This document shows, piece after piece, positions 9,855 to 37,189 of a stretch of 64,000 nucleotides of DNA; the stretch's first letter is position 1; every line of letters starts with the position of its first letter. The DNA is taken from positions 480,001 to 544,000 of the forward strand of contig CAVPIB010000001.1 in NCBI GenBank assembly GCA_963704885.1. Reading direction: 5' to 3'. Below the pieces are notes generated by a model that did no database searches, had not been told where the DNA came from, and was given only the letters and a program-made list of their open reading frames with translations. Both the position numbers and the translations under genes were made by a program. The DNA comes from an uncultured Actinomycetes bacterium. Lineage in GTDB: Bacteria > Actinomycetota > UBA4738 > HRBIN12.

Positions 9855-10442
9855 CTACCCATCGTCCTCGATCACGAGTATCGATCCGGGAGGCGCGTCA
9901 AGCGCGGGCACAGTCAGGCGGGCCGCCTCGTCAACATGGATCTTTGGCGGAGCCGGCTCCTCGTGTTCGAAGTACGTTCTCGGCCCGTAGAACCGGCCGT
10001 AGCGAACAACGACTCCGCCGACCTCGAGCACGGCTCGTTCGTGTTCACGAACCGCCGCGCCGGCGTCGCCGTCGAGCTCCCATGCGACGCTCTGCGCGAC
10101 GATCTTGGACGCCCCGCAGGCCCGAGCAGCGGCGAGTAGGTTGTGCGTCCCTTCACGACGGATCCGCGCGTTAGCGGCTTCGAACTTCGGGATCGAAGCG
10201 ACATCGTCGGGCAGATCGGTCAGCTGATGGACGATCGCGTCCGGCGCGAAGGCCACGACCGCTTCTCGGAGCGCATCGGCATCGAACACATCGCAGACCA
10301 CGGGTTCGGCGCCGATCGTCGCGAGTCCGTCGGCCTTGTCCTGCGAGCGCGTCATGCCGGCCACGACGTGGCCCGCATCGACCAGGAGCGGCACCAGACG
10401 CACGCCGATCACCCCGCTTGCGCCGGCAAGGAAGATCGGCAT
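9855..10442 (-). CDS. NAD(P)-dependent epimerase/dehydratase family protein
   Basis: IFLAGASGVIG Rossmann motif, IVHQLTDL, RYGRFYGP; RBS AAGGAG. Confidence 0.9.
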   Translation of the reverse strand: MPIFLAGASGVIGVRLVPLLVDAGHVVAGMTRSQDKADGLATIGAEPVVCDVFDADALREAVVAFAPDAIVHQLTDLPDDVASIPKFEAANARIRREGTHNLLAAARACGASKIVAQSVAWELDGDAGAAVREHERAVLEVGGVVVRYGRFYGPRTYFEHEEPAPPKIHVDEAARLTVPALDAPPGSILVIEDDG

Positions 10443-10472
10443 GGCTATCGCTCCTTAGATGTCGAAAGCTAT

Positions 10473-10567
10473 TGGCGGAGGCGGACGGGAATCGAACCCG
10501 CCTGGGAGCTTGCGCCCCCACGTCGGTGTTGAAGACCGCGGGGCCCACCAGGAACCCTGACGCCTCC
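10473..10567 (-). tRNA. selC: tRNA-Sec (anticodon UCA)
   Basis: 95 nt, GGAGGCGT...CCGCCTCC-G-CCA; 6-bp D stem; anticodon loop CTTCAAC; long variable arm TGGGGGC-GCAA-GCTCCCA; T arm GCGGG-TTCGATT-CCCGT. Confidence 0.95.
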
Positions 10568-10752
10568 GCACGGGAGCCTACCGGTCTGCCGAACACCGAA
10601 CTCGTGCCCCGCACCCCGAGTGTCCGCGCGCGGCTTACCGGTTCCTTTGCCGAACCTTGACCGGGGGGTGAGAGCGGCCGCTCCAGACTGGGCGTAGTAC
10701 CGGTGACGTGTGGGTAGTCCGATCGATCGCACGTCGGAGGGAGGGAGCACAG

Positions 10753-11136
10753 ATGCGAAAGCAGATGGTCGTCGTCGCCCTGTTCATGGGTATCTCGACC
10801 TGGCTGGTCGCCCCGGTGGCCCACGCGGGCGGCCAGGAGGTGATCCGACGCGGGAGCTGCAGCGCGCAGAGCGACTGGAAGCTGAAGGTCAAGCCCGACA
10901 ACTCTCGGCTCGAGCTCGAGTTCGAAGTGGATCAGAACGTGGTCGGAGAGGTATGGCGGGTGCGGATCAAGCAGAACGGCGCCCGGATCTTCGCAGGCAC
11001 GCGAACCACGCGGGGACCGAGCGGATCGTTCGAGGTGAGGCGCCGTCCGGCGGACGGTGCCGGGGTGGATCGGTTCGTCGCGCGAGCGACGAACCTGTCG
11101 AACGGCGAGAAGTGCGTGGGTCGGATCTCGATCTGA
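10753..11136 (+). CDS. Secreted hypothetical protein
   Basis: RBS GGAGGGAG; Sec signal peptide ending AHA; two Cys; followed by a strong hairpin. Confidence 0.8.
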   Translation: MRKQMVVVALFMGISTWLVAPVAHAGGQEVIRRGSCSAQSDWKLKVKPDNSRLELEFEVDQNVVGEVWRVRIKQNGARIFAGTRTTRGPSGSFEVRRRPADGAGVDRFVARATNLSNGEKCVGRISI

Positions 11137-11155
11137 GAGATGCCGGCTCAGCGAT

Positions 11156-11182
11156 GAGGCCGGGGCCTTCGGCCCCGGCCTC
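11156..11182 (+). terminator. Terminator hairpin
   Basis: GAGGCCGGGGC-CTTCG-GCCCCGGCCTC perfect 11-bp stem. Confidence 0.75.
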
Positions 11183-11198
11183 CCTCACGTCCATCACG

Positions 11199-11249
11199 TT
11201 GCCCACTAGTCCGCTATGGACTAGACTTCGCTGGTCCGCATCAGACTAG
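11199..11249 (+). promoter_or_regulatory. padR promoter with tandem palindromic operators
   Basis: TTGCCC-N17-TAGACT overlapped by CTAGTC-N7-GACTAG (11206-11224), with a second copy CTGGTC-N7-GACTAG (11231-11249). Confidence 0.65.
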
Positions 11250-11266
11250 TGGGGAGATCACGACGG

Positions 11267-11815
11267 ATGAGCGTATCGAAGGTCGAGGTCGTGGTGTTGG
11301 GGCTCCTAGCAGAGGAGCCGATGTACGGGTACGACCTGCTGGAGCGGTTCCGGACCAGGAGCATGGGGTTCTGGGTCGAGGTCGGGAAGGCCTCGGTCTA
11401 CCAGGTCCTCCGCCGGCTGGAGCGCGAGGGGCTGATCGGCGGCCGTTCGCAGGATGGGCCCGAGGGCCCGGATCGCCGTGTATATCGGATCACCAAGGCA
11501 GGCAGGGATCGGTTGACCACAGGGCTCTCGGACCGGTTCGGCATGCTGGAGCCGTACGAGACCGGTGCCGGCCTGGCGCTGGGATTCGTACATCTCCTGT
11601 CGGCCACGGAGGCCCGCAAGGCGGCCGACGCGCGCGAGACGGCCGTTCGAGACCTACTCGACGCCGTAAGAACCGAACGTTCGCGGACGGCAGCCGATCG
11701 CGGCGCCGGACGTACGGTCTCGACCTCGATGCTCGATCGGCAAGAGGCCTTAGCCAAGGCCGAGCTCGCATGGATCAAGGGGTTCCGGACCGACCTGGGC
11801 CGCATCCGCCGGTAG
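11267..11815 (+). CDS. PadR family transcriptional regulator
   Basis: VLGLLAEEPMYGYDL...SVYQVLRRLEREGLI...PDRRVYRITKAG. Confidence 0.92.
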   Translation: MSVSKVEVVVLGLLAEEPMYGYDLLERFRTRSMGFWVEVGKASVYQVLRRLEREGLIGGRSQDGPEGPDRRVYRITKAGRDRLTTGLSDRFGMLEPYETGAGLALGFVHLLSATEARKAADARETAVRDLLDAVRTERSRTAADRGAGRTVSTSMLDRQEALAKAELAWIKGFRTDLGRIRR

Positions 11816-11895
11816 CGACGTTTCTGTGAACATCAAGGGAACCGGCGGTTCAGCCGAGGGTCATGTCGGGACACCACCGTAGGATGGATGCAACC

Positions 11896-12708
11896 ATGGA
11901 AGCCGCGTTCTTCGATCTGGACAAGACGATCATCTCTCGATCGTCCTCGCTCGCGCTCTCTCGTCCCCTGTATCGGGCCGGCATGGTCTCGCGTGGACAG
12001 CTCCTGCGCGGAGCCTACGCGCAGCTGGTCTACCTACTGGTGGGAGCCGACGAGGACAAGATGGAGCGCCTGAAGGAGGGCATGCTCTCCCTCACGAAGG
12101 GGTGGGATCGCTCGCAGGTCGAGCGCCTCGTGCAGGACGTGCTTCTAGACGTGATCGATCCGTACGTCTATCAGGAGGCTCTGGATCTGATCGACCTGCA
12201 CCGAAGCGAGGGTCGCCGGATCTACATCGTCTCGTCGTCTCCGGAGGAGATCGTCCGGCCTCTGGCCCGTCACTTCGGTGTCAGCGGAGTGATCGCCACA
12301 CGCGCCGAGGTCGGCGACGACGGTCGATACACCGGCGGACTGGAGTTCTACGCCTACGGTGCTCAGAAGGCCGAAGCGATCCAGGGGCTCGCCGTCAGGG
12401 CGGGTATCGATCTCTCGGGTTCGTTCGCTTACAGCGACAGCATCACCGACCTCCCCATGCTCGAGGCCGTCGGCAACCCTGTGGCGGTGAACGCCGACAA
12501 GGAGCTCCGCAAGATCGCGGAGGAGCGCGACTGGCAGATCCGCGACTTCCGTCGCCCCGTTCGGCTCCGCTCCCGTATCGCCTCGACCGCGTCGCAGCCC
12601 AAGACTCAGGTCGCGGCCGGCGTGCTGGCCGCCGGCGCGGTGGCCGCGGTCCTGGTGTGGGTGGCGCTCCGGTCGCGCGGCGGAACACGAGGCCGCGGAC
12701 GAGCCTGA
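11896..12708 (+). CDS. HAD-IB family hydrolase (Rv3661-like)
   Basis: AAFFDLDKTII, IVSSS, AYSDSITDLPML and VAVNAD motifs; C-terminal TM helix. Confidence 0.92.
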   Translation: MEAAFFDLDKTIISRSSSLALSRPLYRAGMVSRGQLLRGAYAQLVYLLVGADEDKMERLKEGMLSLTKGWDRSQVERLVQDVLLDVIDPYVYQEALDLIDLHRSEGRRIYIVSSSPEEIVRPLARHFGVSGVIATRAEVGDDGRYTGGLEFYAYGAQKAEAIQGLAVRAGIDLSGSFAYSDSITDLPMLEAVGNPVAVNADKELRKIAEERDWQIRDFRRPVRLRSRIASTASQPKTQVAAGVLAAGAVAAVLVWVALRSRGGTRGRGRA

Positions 12709-33542: not shown

Positions 33543-36059
33543 TTAGCCCTTCATCCGGGCGTTCTCAGGATCGAACAGCGGTGTGCTCCCCGCCACCGCG
33601 ACCGTCACCGGATAGCGTTCGCCGAAGTATTCGACGGCGAGCTCGACGCCCTCGCGTGCGTGCTCCGGCGGGAGGTAGCTCATGAGCAGATGTTTGCCGA
33701 CCGAGGGGCCTGACCCGGCGCTGGTGACGAACGAGCGCGTCCCGGTCGCGTCGGCGATCGGGTCGCCGTCGCGGGTGACGATGGGCTCGCGACCCATCAT
33801 GTAGCGGGCGACGCCGGAGGCAGACGTCGGATCGTCCACCGTCAGGGTGCAGAGCACCCGTACCGGATCCTCCGTTCGCTGCTTCAGGTAGGCGTCCTTG
33901 CCCACGAAGTCGTCGTCCTTGACGGTCGCCCGCGCCATACCGGCCTGGACCAGGTCGTGCTCCAGGTCCAGCTCGTTGCCGTGCGCTCGGTACCCTTTCT
34001 CCAGGCGTGCGGTCACCGCGTAGGCGCCGATCCCGACCGGGGCCATGTCGTGCGTCCGACCCGCCTCCCACAGCAGGTCCCACACCCGCGCTCCCTGCTC
34101 CATGGGGACGTAGATCTCCCAACCCAGCTCTCCCACGTAGGAGATGCGCGACGCAAGCGCCCGCACCGGCCCGAGCGTGATCCAGCGGCAGGTGGCGAAC
34201 CCGAAAGCATCGTCGGACATGTCGTCTTCGGTCACCGAGCCGACCACGTCGCGGGCGCGCGGACCCCACACACCCACCGTGCAGAGCGCCGACGTCGCGT
34301 CGAACAGCTGCGCCGAGCCGTCGTGGGGCAGATGGTCCAAGATCCACTTCCGATCGGCCATCCCGCCGTGGCCGCCCGTCACCACTCGGAACGACCGCTC
34401 ACCCAAGCGCATGATCGTGAGGTCCGCCTTGATGCCGCCCGCGTCGTTCAGGAAGGGCGTGTACACCACGCGGCCGACGGGCACGTCCATCCGGGCGACG
34501 GCGAGCCTCTGCAGGGTAGCCAGCGCGCCTGGACCTTCTACGTCGAAGATGGCGAACGCCGACAGGTCGACCATCCCGACCCGGTCACGCATGGCCAGGT
34601 GCTCGGCGTTGATGATCGGGGACCACCATCGCGACTCCCATTCCGCCTCGCGCGGCATCACGCGGTCGCCGTACTCATCCAGAAGCGAGGCGTTGGAGCC
34701 GTACCAGTACGGCCGCTCCCAGCCGACCGCCTCGTAGAACACGGCGTCCAGCTCGCGCTCCCGCGCGTTGAACGGACTCAGCCGCACGTCGCGGTTCGAT
34801 GCCCATTGCTCCATGGGGTGGACGATGCCGTACGTCTTGTTGAATCCCTCGGCCGAGCGCGACTCGATGTGGGCTCGCGTCCGCTGATGCGGGTAGAAGC
34901 GAGCGATGTCCGATCCGTGCGGGTCGATCTCGGGCTTGCCGTCCGTCATCCACTCGGCGACCATGCTGGCGATCCCCGGCGCCTCCTTGATCCAGATGGC
35001 GGCGGCGGACCAGAGACCTCCGACCTCGGGCGTCTCGCCCAGGATCGGCATCCCGTCGGGCGTCAGGGACAACAGGCCGTTGATCCCGTAGCGGATGCCG
35101 ACCCTCTCGTCGCCCAAGATGTCGGGCACGAGCTCGAGCGCCTGCTCCATCTGCGGATCGAAGTCGTCCTGCGTCAAAGGGAGCTCGGTGGGGGAGAGCG
35201 CCGACTCCTCGATCGAGGGGATGTCGTCGGCGTCCATCAGGATCGGCCGGTGCGCGTAGGAGCCGACCTCCAGGTCGCCTCCGTGCTGGCGCTCGTACAT
35301 GTTGGTGTCCATGTCACGGACGATCGGGTAGGAGATCTCGCCGACCGTGTCGGCGAACAGCGGCACGGGCCCGACGCTGATCATCTGGTGGACGGCGGGC
35401 GTGAGCGGGATGGAGGCGCCGGCCATCTTGGCGATGCGCGGGCTCCAGATCCCGCAACACACCACGACGGTCTCGGCCCGGATGTCACCCTCGGTCGTGC
35501 GAACGCCGCGCACGCGCCCGCCTTCGACGTCGACGCCGGTGATCTCGGCGCCGGCCACCACGGTCAGTGCACCGAGCTCGGTCGCTTTCTCGCGCATCAG
35601 CGTGCCGGCACGCAGCGAGTCCACCACGCCGACGCCCGGCGTGTGGAAGCCGCCCAGGATCACGCCCTCCTCCACGTAGGGCACCAGCTCCTTCACCTGC
35701 GCGGGCGTGAGCAGTTCGGAGTCGATCCCCCACGAGCGGCTGGACGCCATCCGCCGCTTCAGCTCCTCCATCCGCTCGGGGGTGCGCGCCACCTCGATGC
35801 CGCCGCTCTGGGTGAAGACGCCGAGGTGCTGGTACTGGTGGACGCTGTCCAGCGTGAGGTCTGTCATCTCCTTGGAGTGATCCACCAGGAAGATGAAGTT
35901 GGAGGCGTGTCCGGTGGAGCCGCCCGGGTTGGGGAGCGGCCCCTTGTCCAGGAGCACGATGTCCTTCCATCCGTGCAGGGCCAGTTGGTAGGCGATGCTG
36001 TTACCGACGATGCCGGCGCCGATCACGACGACACCAGCTTCGGAAGGCGTTGGGCTCAT
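33543..36059 (-). CDS. GcvT-family dimethylglycine dehydrogenase/oxidase-like flavoprotein
   Basis: GAGIVG, GGSTGHA, SLTPDG, RISYVGELGWE and RLEKGYR motifs. Confidence 0.95.
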   Translation of the reverse strand: MSPTPSEAGVVVIGAGIVGNSIAYQLALHGWKDIVLLDKGPLPNPGGSTGHASNFIFLVDHSKEMTDLTLDSVHQYQHLGVFTQSGGIEVARTPERMEELKRRMASSRSWGIDSELLTPAQVKELVPYVEEGVILGGFHTPGVGVVDSLRAGTLMREKATELGALTVVAGAEITGVDVEGGRVRGVRTTEGDIRAETVVVCCGIWSPRIAKMAGASIPLTPAVHQMISVGPVPLFADTVGEISYPIVRDMDTNMYERQHGGDLEVGSYAHRPILMDADDIPSIEESALSPTELPLTQDDFDPQMEQALELVPDILGDERVGIRYGINGLLSLTPDGMPILGETPEVGGLWSAAAIWIKEAPGIASMVAEWMTDGKPEIDPHGSDIARFYPHQRTRAHIESRSAEGFNKTYGIVHPMEQWASNRDVRLSPFNARERELDAVFYEAVGWERPYWYGSNASLLDEYGDRVMPREAEWESRWWSPIINAEHLAMRDRVGMVDLSAFAIFDVEGPGALATLQRLAVARMDVPVGRVVYTPFLNDAGGIKADLTIMRLGERSFRVVTGGHGGMADRKWILDHLPHDGSAQLFDATSALCTVGVWGPRARDVVGSVTEDDMSDDAFGFATCRWITLGPVRALASRISYVGELGWEIYVPMEQGARVWDLLWEAGRTHDMAPVGIGAYAVTARLEKGYRAHGNELDLEHDLVQAGMARATVKDDDFVGKDAYLKQRTEDPVRVLCTLTVDDPTSASGVARYMMGREPIVTRDGDPIADATGTRSFVTSAGSGPSVGKHLLMSYLPPEHAREGVELAVEYFGERYPVTVAVAGSTPLFDPENARMKG

Positions 36060-36126
36060 GCGGCCGGGCTCCTCTCGGGTTCCAGGGACGCATGATGACG
36101 GACCGCGCCGCCGGTTGTCTCGTCGC

Positions 36127-36396
36127 TCAGGCGGTCGGGTCGGCCGACTTCGACGCTTTGGCGATCACGCTGATCGCGACCGACCCCTGCCGCTCCTCGG
36201 GGATCAGTCGACGCATCAATCCCACGATCTCGTCGGTGAAGAGTGGGTACAGCTGCGCGTCGGCTATCCCATACGGTTGATGCGCACCGATCCAGATATC
36301 GGAGAAGCCGATCCTGTCCATCTTCCGGGCGAAGACACGCTCTGCTATGGCGTCAGACACTCATCCGGCCCAGGCGGCATCACTCGTCAAGAACAT
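36127..36396 (-). CDS. Candidate selenoprotein (in-frame UGA at 36361-36363) resembling the C-terminal part of arsenite methyltransferase-like proteins; may be 5'-truncated
   Basis: MFLTSDAAWAG-TGA-VSDAIAERVFARKMDRIGFSDI...; matches the ArsM-type WAGC(I/V)xGA...GFxDI context with UGA in place of Cys; SECIS-like hairpin downstream. Confidence 0.7.
36315..36342 (-). promoter_or_regulatory. Bacterial SECIS-like hairpin
   Basis: mRNA GUCUUC-GCCCG-GAAGAU stem-loop; apical loop starts with G and lies ~30 nt 3' of the UGA. Confidence 0.6.
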
Positions 36397-36439
36397 CGAC
36401 GCGGCGTTCTCCCATCCGCTCCGGTGGAACGAGCGCCGT

Positions 36440-36570
36440 GGGCACGACCGTCTCTGGATCCTCGACGTTGGAGGCACTCAGCTCACCGTCGATGCATCCT
36501 TCTTCCCCGGAGGAGTGACTCGGATCGGGCGGAGCTCCTGCATATCGCGGAGTCCGTCACGACCGAGTGA
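36440..36570 (+). pseudogene. 3' remnant of an actinobacterial exported-protein gene
   Basis: HDRLWILDVGGTQLTVDASFFPG followed, after a frame change, by SDRAELLHIAESVTTE*; no 5' part present. Confidence 0.45.
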
Positions 36571-36652
36571 GGCGCCGACTCTCGACGCGAGCCCCCTGAC
36601 ACTCCAGAGTCCCTCGTGAACCGTTCGGTGGCGTTGAAGCGACAGGTGGGAT

Positions 36653-37189
36653 ATGAGGGACGAGCACGACGACGACCCATCGGATGATCGCCTCGTCGTT
36701 GCGATCGGCGGCGGTGATGGCGACGCGCTGCGAACGCTCTACGAGCGCCACGCGCCCTGGCTGATCCTGCGCCTCTCGCGCCGGTGCGCCGATCCCGCGA
36801 TCGTCGAGGAGGTCGTCCAGGACACGTTCCTCGCCGTGTGGCGAGGCGCCCGCCGCTACCGCGGTCAGGGTGAGGTGGCCGCCTGGATCTGGGGGATCGG
36901 GATCCGCCGTCTGATCGACCATCTGCGCCGGCGTTCGATGCTCTCGGCGTTCCGCGAGCGGTCGCGGATGGAGCCCTCAGCCGAGGAAATGGTCCTGCTC
37001 GGGATCGAGCACGGCGACGTGGGAAGCGCGATGAACCGGCTCTCACCGGAGCTGCGCGCGGTCCTGCAAGCCACGATCTTGGACGGCCTGACCACCCGCG
37101 AGGCGGCGCGCCTCCTGGGGATCCCACAAGGCACCGTGAAGACCCGATTGATGAGAGCTCGGCGAGAACTCCGGGAGGCACTGGCATGA
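36653..37189 (+). CDS. ECF RNA polymerase sigma factor
   Basis: EEVVQDTFLAVW, WIWGIGIRRLID and LGIPQGTVKTRLMRAR motifs. Confidence 0.93.
   Translation: MRDEHDDDPSDDRLVVAIGGGDGDALRTLYERHAPWLILRLSRRCADPAIVEEVVQDTFLAVWRGARRYRGQGEVAAWIWGIGIRRLIDHLRRRSMLSAFRERSRMEPSAEEMVLLGIEHGDVGSAMNRLSPELRAVLQATILDGLTTREAARLLGIPQGTVKTRLMRARRELREALA

What the first reader, a model, noticed from the sequence alone, without database searches (positions are those of the whole stretch)
36127..36396. Hidden UGA-recoded selenoprotein candidate with SECIS, upstream of a dimethylglycine dehydrogenase-like/ETF operon
Seen: the 77-aa ORF in the track (36127-36360) is preceded in frame by TGA and then ATG-FLTSDAAWAG. This gives an 89-aa product MFLTSDAAWAG-U-VSDAIAERVFARKMDRIGFSDI...LYPLFTDEIVGLMRRLIP. 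A GUCUUC-GCCCG-GAAGAU hairpin with a G-first loop sits ~30 nt after the UGA, GGGAG precedes the ATG, and selC is in the same window. Known: ArsM/AS3MT methyltransferases have a catalytic Cys in a WAGC(I/V)xGA...GFxDI context, and bacterial SECIS elements lie just 3' of the UGA. Inference: Sec replaces that Cys. The SAM-binding domain is absent, so this is either a stand-alone Sec mini-protein, co-oriented 67 nt upstream of a methyl-amine oxidation operon, or the tail of a deleted Sec-ArsM gene.
Basis: partly seen in the sequence, partly recalled or inferred. Interest (0 to 1): 0.85.

Follow-up and report, generated by a model that had tools for sequence, protein, structure and literature searches.

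The report
Truncated relic of selenoprotein methyltransferase gene
This is the leftover tail of a selenocysteine-containing ArsM-like methyltransferase gene that has lost its front two-thirds, so it is most likely a dead fragment of an already known selenoprotein family and not a new mini-selenoprotein.

Summary
The genome also has selA, selB and selD.

The TGA is a true ancestral Sec codon. In 294 genomes of the class, 60 matches were found. 58 carry a TGA, and the other 2 do not cover that column. All 33 loci I read show WAG-U. Cys-form orthologs (WAGC) also exist.

Of 38 relatives' loci examined:
- 29 are intact genes of about 265 aa with a SAM-methyltransferase domain.
- 5 are cut by contig ends.
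- 4 are broken in other ways.
- None is a stand-alone mini-gene.

In the window, homology starts within two codons of the ATG. The roughly 185-codon N-terminal part is absent from the locus and from the rest of the genome.

The window copy has also changed at constrained sites. The Gly of the family's UxxG motif is now Asp, and 2 of 7 pairs of the conserved post-UGA hairpin are broken. A 93%-identical metagenome contig keeps all three ancestral letters and continues upstream into the intact gene.

Sec-containing arsenite methyltransferase is a published selenoprotein family.

Verdict: a recent 5'-truncated pseudogene relic. Low interest.

The parts
36130..36396 (-). 89-codon open frame. It is the last ~82 codons of a Sec-containing ArsM-like methyltransferase gene plus 2-3 junction codons that supply an ATG.
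   Evidence: Translation. It has 51-72% identity to the C-terminal 80-odd residues of ~265-aa genes in relatives. NCBIfam NF008823 matches profile positions 198-240 of 272, at 20.9 bits.
36361..36363 (-). In-frame TGA, the ancestral selenocysteine codon (WAG-U).
   Evidence: All 33 loci read have TGA after WAG. 58 of 60 class-wide matches report a TGA inside. Cys is at this column in 7 of 7 full-length database homologs and in solved ArsM structures.
36352..36354 (-). GAC (Asp) where the family has the Gly of its UxxG motif.
   Evidence: 32 of 32 other sequences have Gly. A 93%-identical metagenome contig reads GGG here. The UxxG motif is given for this selenoprotein family in PMC13188914.
36328..36346 (-). 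Degraded copy of the conserved post-UGA hairpin (GGCGGAG-CGUGU-CUUCGCC in relatives), the candidate SECIS.
   Evidence: 7 of 7 pairs are kept in 10 of 11 intact relatives, and one relative has one mismatch. The window has 2 of 7 pairs broken by G>A at 36346 and 36343. The metagenome contig has G at both positions.
36320..36336 (-).
   Evidence: Present in the window. Only 80.6% of cells pair across 12 sequences, and pair 41/55 is broken in 9 of 12.
36390..36396 (.). Truncation breakpoint. Homology to intact genes ends here, and the ATG lies on it.
   Evidence: Codon-by-codon identity to five relatives falls to chance level upstream of the TTG at 36390-36388. The metagenome contig diverges from the window after 36389.
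36127..36129 (-). Terminal TGA stop of the relic frame.
36409..36413 (-). GGGAG, 12 nt upstream of the ATG, in sequence that is not homologous to the ancestral gene.
10473..10567 (-). tRNA-Sec (selC). This is context only, about 26 kb away.

Best explanation
The locus is a 5'-truncated pseudogene.

An ancestor carried an intact gene of about 265 codons for an ArsM-like SAM-dependent methyltransferase. Its single conserved active-site Cys was encoded as selenocysteine (UGA, motif WAG-U-x-x-G), decoded with the help of a hairpin 15 nt after the UGA (it starts at the 18th base counted from the U).

A deletion or rearrangement with one end at about 36390-36396 removed the first ~185 codons. These held the whole SAM-binding Rossmann domain. 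In relatives they are preceded by an ECF sigma / zf-HC2 anti-sigma pair. The last ~82 codons were left next to unrelated DNA that happens to supply an in-frame ATG.

The tail has no catalytic domain and is most likely not a working gene. It has started to decay, with the motif Gly changed to Asp, two stem pairs of the hairpin lost, and lowered GC3.

Shown: the homology, the truncation, the conserved TGA, and the window-specific changes.

Inferred: that the tail is not translated into a useful product, and that the event is recent.
For: 1. The relatives carry full-length genes. Of 38 relatives' loci read, 29 have one uninterrupted frame covering query residues <=5 to >=260 with one TGA, 5 are cut by contig ends, and 4 are broken.
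2. In the window, the intact same-genus protein matches only residues 185-266 at this locus. No N-terminal half of this gene lies elsewhere in the genome. The other hits are two distinct paralogs of 49% and 43% identity plus generic methyltransferases. The tail itself has 1 match in the genome at E <= 10.
3. Identity to relatives drops to chance upstream of 36390.
4. A public-run contig (X2, record 12, 151 nt) is 93% identical over 36304-36389. It then continues with letters that I translated by hand as ...VEEDLPPEI, the sequence intact relatives have before LTSDAAWAGU. At 36353/36352, 36346 and 36343 it has the family consensus (GGG Gly, ATG, GCG), where the window has GAC, ATA, GCA.
5. The Gly is invariant in 32 of 32 other sequences. 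The two stem Gs are kept in all 11 relatives of alignment A2.
6. The 42 nt after the UGA fold at -7.3 kcal/mol in the window, against -12.5 to -17.7 in five intact relatives.
7. GC3 is 0.79, against 0.84-0.91 in six neighbouring genes. The lowest 89-codon stretch of the neighbouring DMGDH gene has 0.87.
8. The gene is patchy and often lost or broken in this class. It is found in 59 of 294 genomes. Only 1 of 12 other genomes of the same genus has it. Other wrecks have different break points: G214, G249, G211 and G190.
9. Same-genus genome G007 matches the window from 36123 onward, just past the relic's stop, but has unrelated DNA where the relic lies.
Against: - The 89-codon frame is still open, begins with ATG and has a GGGAG 12 nt upstream.
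- At protein level the tail departs from only 1 of 21 columns that are invariant in the other 32 sequences, and five intact sequences also depart at one.
- At DNA level it departs at 3 of 72 otherwise invariant columns. One of those is the junction codon, and one intact relative (L023) also departs at 3. Decay is therefore slight and rests on few sites.
- 5 of 7 stem pairs of the hairpin remain.
- The organism can decode Sec.
- The junction itself has no independent support and no expression data exist (both listed under Tried and rejected).
- The intact-allele evidence is a single 151-nt contig at depth 2.4.
Confidence: 0.85

Rival explanations
1. The tail is translated from ATG 36396, with Sec inserted at codon 12. 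This would give a stand-alone 89-aa selenoprotein made of the C-terminal subdomain of the methyltransferase, with some new role such as binding a metalloid or a thiol.
For: The frame is open, with ATG and GGGAG. The full Sec machinery is present. Protein-level conservation is nearly intact. 5 of 7 hairpin pairs remain.
Against: No second genome has this architecture among 294 searched. The only other 5'-truncated copy (G214) breaks 11 codons further upstream and has no start codon there. The motif Gly next to Sec is lost, and two hairpin pairs were lost specifically on this lineage. The ATG lies in non-homologous junction DNA 12 nt from the GGGAG, a long spacing. No sigma-70-type promoter was found (weak evidence for this kind of organism).
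Confidence: 0.05
2. Only the 77-aa ORF after the TGA (GTG 36360) is translated, giving a small Sec-free protein.
For: The ORF is listed mechanically, and gene callers would call it.
Against: In intact relatives the same GTG/ATA/CTG codon directly after the UGA is an internal codon of a 265-aa protein. I saw no ribosome-binding motif in the 15 nt before it. The ORF would encode a domain fragment without its partner domain.
Confidence: 0.03
3. The truncation is an assembly artefact. The contig joins two places wrongly between about 36390 and 36540, and the real genome has an intact gene.
For: The genome is a 20-contig draft with 4.5% contamination. A close relative with the intact form exists in public runs. 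The junction itself is not independently confirmed (see Tried and rejected).
Against: The window copy differs from the intact allele at exactly the constrained sites (motif Gly, two stem Gs). This is expected of a copy freed from selection and not of an intact gene. The N-terminal half is nowhere else in the assembly, which is 97% complete.
Confidence: 0.05

Closest known systems
Selenocysteine-containing arsenite (S-adenosyl)methyltransferase, PRK11873 / NF008823, Sec motif UxxG
   Same: Same superfamily, same Sec position (the Cys of C-x-x-G-A), and Sec/Cys orthologs both exist. The family is in print as a selenoprotein. I read only the following passages: PMC2398784, table row and text. PMC5029168, table row giving 39 organisms and 41 proteins. 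PMC9312934, table row. PMC13188914, table row giving 'UxxG' and NF008823.
   Different: The window holds only the last third of such a gene, with the motif Gly changed to Asp. The intact relatives score 225.2 bits on NF008823, below its cut-off of 263. They lack the other two ArsM cysteines, having GVGNP and SNGVINL. I could not see the papers' supplements, so I cannot say whether this actinobacterial clade is among the organisms they list.
Canonical Cys-type ArsM (solved structures 5evj, 4fr0/4fs8; this genome's own copy at G000:C1:890773-891333)
   Same: Same fold family. The Sec column aligns with the third conserved Cys. The genome's own copy passes NF008823 with 302 bits.
   Different: Canonical ArsM has GCGNP and SNCVINL cysteines and Cys in place of Sec. 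The relic has no methyltransferase domain at all.
NCBIfam fusion selenoproteins NF041537 (ArsM/AhpD), NF041536 (ArsM/DUF2284), NF047649 (MTase/UXPK-star)
   Same: ArsM-like domain with Sec in UxxG. They hit the intact relative at 154-177 bits.
   Different: All hits are far below their cut-offs (460-575). Those are two- or three-Sec fusion proteins, while this family has one Sec and no fused domain.
Earlier scan finding e1-1387921 (another genome)
   Same: An ArsM-like methyltransferase with one in-frame TGA at the conserved Cys, next to a ZAS anti-sigma factor. It was judged an intact selenoprotein of a known kind.
   Different: That gene is intact. The one here is a truncated tail without the sigma/anti-sigma pair.

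Membership tests
Sec-containing ArsM-like methyltransferase (NF008823-type, UxxG) | SAM-binding Rossmann methyltransferase domain (Pfam Methyltransf_31/11/25) | tested here: not met
   No Pfam hit for the 89-aa or the 198-aa read-through at E <= 1. Homology covers only residues 185-266 of the intact protein. The intact relative has the domain at residues 66-201.
Sec-containing ArsM-like methyltransferase (NF008823-type, UxxG) | UGA (Sec) at the column of the conserved Cys in C(I/V)xGA | tested here: met
Sec-containing ArsM-like methyltransferase (NF008823-type, UxxG) | Gly at position +3 of the UxxG motif | tested here: not met
   The window has Asp, and 32 of 32 other sequences have Gly. The motif is named in PMC13188914.
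Sec-containing ArsM-like methyltransferase (NF008823-type, UxxG) | Score at or above the NCBIfam cut-off (263 bits) | tested here: not met
   20.9 bits for the relic and 225.2 bits for an intact same-genus relative.
Sec-containing ArsM-like methyltransferase (NF008823-type, UxxG) | Functional SECIS hairpin just 3' of the UGA | tested here: inconclusive
   The hairpin conserved in relatives has 5 of 7 pairs left in the window. There is no covariation to prove the structure because the columns are invariant. SelB binding is not testable here.
Canonical arsenite methyltransferase ArsM/AS3MT | The other two conserved cysteines (GCGNP and SNCVINL; their role in As(III) binding is from my recall of the CmArsM literature) | tested here: not met
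   The region is absent from the relic. In intact relatives, and in Cys-form orthologs, these columns are Val and Gly.
Bacterial selenoprotein gene in general | Genome encodes selA, selB, selC and selD | tested here: met
   selA 493.2 bits, selB 321.3 bits and selD 372.7 bits (two copies), all over their cut-offs. tRNA-Sec.

The most novel reading that the evidence does not exclude
The truncated tail is still translated from its accidental ATG, with Sec inserted at codon 12 through the weakened hairpin. This would make an 89-aa orphan-domain selenoprotein born by gene truncation.
Probability: 0.04. Interest if true: 0.55.

Novelty: already known. Interest (0 to 1): 0.15.

Why it matters
The result matters mainly for annotation. 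The 77-aa ORF should be marked as the remnant of a selenoprotein gene, not as a gene and not as a new selenoprotein.

It also shows that a real ancestral Sec codon, good homology across the UGA and a nearby hairpin can all be present in a dead fragment. The test that separates a relic from a living gene is whether relatives share the short architecture.

A side result is that a sizeable actinobacterial clade carries an intact Sec (or Cys) ArsM-like methyltransferase, found in 59 of 294 genomes of the class. Public gene calls cut it at residue 193. It keeps only one of the three ArsM cysteines, so its substrate may not be arsenite. That family was already found by this scan on other DNA and belongs to a published kind.

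Tried and rejected
- **Inversion idea.** I asked whether the divergent ECF sigma at 36653-37189 is the inverted partner of the ancestral operon. This was rejected. It is only 26-30% identical to the sigma genes beside intact copies. No N-terminal gene half follows the anti-sigma or lies elsewhere in the genome.
- **Junction and expression.** No RNA holder was listed. DNA holders share at most 0.14 of the sampled words. No laid contig covers 36415-36536, so the junction is not independently confirmed.
- **Promoter and terminator scans, 35950-36750.** 0 and 0 found.
- **Covariation in the conserved hairpin.** None was found, because the columns do not vary.
- **Fold energies.** Neither the window's nor the relatives' post-UGA stretches fold better than shuffles (z from -0.74 to +0.81). 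The hairpin is supported by conservation, including at third codon positions, and not by energy.
- **Earlier notes.** Notes near this place: none.
- The G010 row was given in the wrong orientation and should be ignored.
- **dN/dS.** Not attempted. The closest genome copy is 71-72% identical in protein, so silent sites are saturated.
- **Not used.** Structure and complex prediction, because they would not separate the readings.
- **Paper supplements.** Not consulted.

Full report
**Observation.**
On the minus strand an ATG at 36396 is followed after eleven codons by TGA (36363-36361). After that comes the 77-codon ORF that the ORF list gives as 36127-36360. The frame upstream of the ATG runs on without homology and meets another TGA 39 codons further up. 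GGGAG lies 12 nt before the ATG. The hairpin GUCUUC-GCCCG-GAAGAU lies at 36336-36320. The next gene starts 67 nt after the stop. It has the DAO / FAO_M / GCV_T / GCV_T_C order of a dimethylglycine or sarcosine dehydrogenase-type protein and is followed by ETF beta and alpha. tRNA-Sec is at 10473-10567. The genome, of which the window is G000:C1:480001-544000, has selA, selB and two selD matches above the curated cut-offs. The observation therefore stands. The hairpin by itself is not above chance.

**What the TGA is.**
The 89-aa product has no Pfam hit. It has a weak NCBIfam hit to arsenite methyltransferase NF008823, profile positions 198-240 of 272 (20.9 bits, E 2e-4).

A six-frame search of 60 relatives found 11 with a homolog, every one with a TGA inside the match. 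Widening to the class gave 59 of 294 genomes with a match (53 of 288 without the six unpublished genomes) and 60 matches. 58 matches report a TGA, and the 2 without cover only query residues 31-84 and 39-87, so they miss the column. In all 33 loci whose sequence I read, the TGA follows W-A-G directly.

A search of the large protein collection with the intact same-genus protein returned two kinds of hit. Some were 193-residue fragments that end in ...AAWAG, which are Sec forms cut short by gene callers. Others were full-length proteins of 264-274 residues. The 7 full-length proteins I aligned all have WAGC(V/I)SGA.

The column aligns with the Cys of VGCIAGAL in this genome's own canonical ArsM. 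It also aligns with the Cys of ECLaGAL / ECLgGAL in solved ArsM structures 5evj and 4fr0.

**What the locus is.**
In relatives the frame continues upstream of LTSDAAWAGU into a complete methyltransferase of about 265 residues. Its features are M..DLLFQ.EIK, VLDVGSGGGID, VVISNGVINLS, and Pfam Methyltransf_31 at residues 66-201.

Of 38 relatives' loci read:
- 29 have one uninterrupted full-length frame.
- 5 are cut by a contig end.
- 4 are broken: G211 by a frameshift, G190 by an internal deletion with a frame change, G214 5'-truncated from residue 174, and G249 reduced to the last 50 residues.
- None is a stand-alone short gene with its own start.

In the window, codon-by-codon identity to five relatives is high from the TTG at 36390-36388 downstream and at chance level upstream. 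The intact same-genus protein matches this locus only over residues 185-266. The rest of the genome holds no N-terminal half of this gene. The two other strong hits there are separate paralogs, described under "In passing" below.

The sigma factor that lies divergently upstream (36653-37189) is only 26-30% identical to the sigma genes that precede intact copies, so a simple inversion does not explain the arrangement. Same-genus genome G007 shares the DMGDH gene and its leader from 36123 onward, just past the relic's stop, but has unrelated DNA where the relic is. The locus sits at a rearrangement point and holds only the 3' third of the gene.

**Signs of decay, and their limits.**
Eleven intact relatives share a hairpin GGCGGAG-CGUGU-CUUCGCC that starts at the 18th base counted from the U of the UGA. 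All 7 pairs are kept in 10 of them, and one relative has one mismatch. The window has 2 of 7 pairs broken by G>A at 36346 and 36343. There is no covariation because the columns do not vary, so the structure is supported only by conservation, including at third codon positions.

Only 80.6% of cells pair, and one pair is broken in 9 of 12 sequences.

The Gly of the family's UxxG motif, invariant in 32 of 32 other sequences, is Asp in the window. GC3 of the relic is 0.79, against 0.84-0.91 in six neighbouring genes.

The strongest single piece of evidence is a contig from a public sediment-metagenome run (X2, record 12, 151 nt, depth 2.4). It is 93% identical to the window over 36304-36389 and then leaves it. 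Its continuation translates (by my hand) as ...VEEDLPPEI, exactly what intact relatives have before LTSDAAWAGU. At the three sites above it carries the family consensus (GGG, ATG, GCG). A close relative therefore has the intact gene, and the three changes arose on the window's lineage.

Against a strong claim of decay:
- The frame is still open.
- Only 1 of 21 invariant protein columns is changed, and five intact sequences also depart at one.
- Only 3 of 72 otherwise invariant DNA columns are changed. One of these is the junction codon, and one intact relative also has 3.

The truncation is therefore recent. The case that the tail is dead rests on the missing catalytic domain, the lack of any recurring short architecture, and a few changes at the most constrained sites.

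**How it most likely works.**
The relic most likely does nothing. It has no SAM-binding domain, a damaged Sec motif and a weakened decoding signal.

The ancestral protein would have been a SAM-dependent methyltransferase in which Sec, or Cys in orthologs, binds or attacks the substrate. It is encoded behind an ECF sigma factor and a zf-HC2 anti-sigma factor (L047: PF13490 at 44.6 bits, and sigma-70 regions 2 and 4). This fits induction by a stress signal (inference).

Both Sec and Cys forms of this clade have Val and Gly where ArsM has the GCGNP and SNCVINL cysteines. Arsenite may therefore not be the substrate (inference).

**Comparison with what is known.**
Sec-containing arsenite S-adenosylmethyltransferase (PRK11873 / NF008823) is a listed selenoprotein family. 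I read passages only, as follows:
- The GOS survey lists 8 Sec sequences (PMC2398784).
- A survey of over 5200 genomes lists 39 organisms and 41 proteins (PMC5029168).
- Two reviews give a table row each, one of them with the motif UxxG. In both tables the row stands before the block headed "predicted" (PMC9312934; PMC13188914).

NCBIfam also holds three ArsM-fusion selenoprotein models. The intact relatives fall below every curated cut-off (best 225.2 against 263), so they are a near but separately branching clade.

This scan noted the same kind of gene, intact and beside a ZAS anti-sigma factor, on another genome (e1-1387921). My results agree with it. That note names Fomenko et al. 2007, which I did not read. 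Supplements were not consulted, so I cannot say whether this clade is already in the published lists.

**In passing.**
- The genome keeps a canonical Cys ArsM at C1:890773-891333 (302 bits on NF008823).
- It also keeps an intact Sec paralog at C7:88564-89136 (WTG-U-IAGAL, 256 aa), sitting behind a DsrE/DsrF-like gene.

**Verdict.**
The Sec-for-Cys inference is right. The "hidden selenoprotein" is a recently truncated relic of a known selenoprotein family.

Confidences:
- Relic: 0.85.
- Translated mini-selenoprotein: about 0.05.
- Sec-free 77-aa product: about 0.03.
- Misassembly: about 0.05.

Interest is low.

The counts, and three rows of the alignments, include unpublished genomes (G292, G062, G192, G200, G242, G086). 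No conclusion depends on them.

Noticed in passing
G000:C7:88564-89136 (locus L028:1414-2181, minus strand): An intact 256-aa Sec-containing ArsM-like paralog (SNGVINL ... WTG-U-IAGAL) in the same genome. It lies directly behind a 121-aa DsrE/DsrF-like gene (PF02635, 41.7 bits). Its best NCBIfam hits are all below cut-off (NF041537 at 227 bits against a cut-off of 510).
   Followed up: partly
Loci L016-L026 and L047-L067 (relatives); proteins P0006, P0010, P0011, P0034, P0036, P0043, P0083: The whole clade, in both Sec and Cys forms, has Val and Gly where ArsM has the GCGNP and SNCVINL cysteines. It keeps only the third Cys/Sec, plus conserved Cys in EMC and LCVADL. The substrate may not be arsenite.
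   Followed up: partly
L047:160-944 (G132) and the upstream frames in L023 and L024: Intact copies are preceded, in the same orientation, by an ECF-type sigma factor and an 82-aa zf-HC2 (HxxxCxxC) anti-sigma factor whose stop overlaps or abuts the next start. This looks like a stress-regulated three-gene unit.
   Followed up: partly
L069 (G214:C2), L071 (G249:C14), L068 (G211:C1), L073 (G190:C62): There are four other wrecks of the same gene in other genera: 5'-truncated at a different point, reduced to 50 codons, frameshifted, and internally deleted. The gene is being lost repeatedly in this class.
   Followed up: partly
Proteins P0004, P0005, P0008, P0009, P0021, P0074, P0111: Public gene calls end the Sec forms at residue 193 (...AAWAG). 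They name them SAM-dependent methyltransferase, arsenite methyltransferase or methyltransferase domain-containing protein. The selenoprotein is not annotated.
   Followed up: no
Proteins P0036, P0038, P0063 and others of 384-390 aa: Many Cys-form homologs carry a C-terminal cupin domain (PF07883 / PF02311) fused to the methyltransferase.
   Followed up: no
G000:C20:5731-6654 and G000:C14:8433-9356: Two selD matches on small contigs have the same score (372.7 bits). This could be a real duplicate or redundant contigs in the draft, which has 4.54% contamination.
   Followed up: no
window 9855-12708: tRNA-Sec (10473-10567) lies between an epimerase-like ORF and an ORF without a Pfam hit, followed by PadR and HAD-hydrolase genes. 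No selenoprotein or sel gene is adjacent. selA and selB lie about 116 kb before the window's first base on the same contig.
   Followed up: partly
window 36137-36326 and 35961-36110 (runs X2, X3, X5): Separate 151-nt contigs from three public metagenome studies match the relic's 3' part and the DMGDH 5' end at about 95-97%. The methyltransferase-DMGDH adjacency may therefore be older than the truncation, but no contig bridges the two.
   Followed up: no
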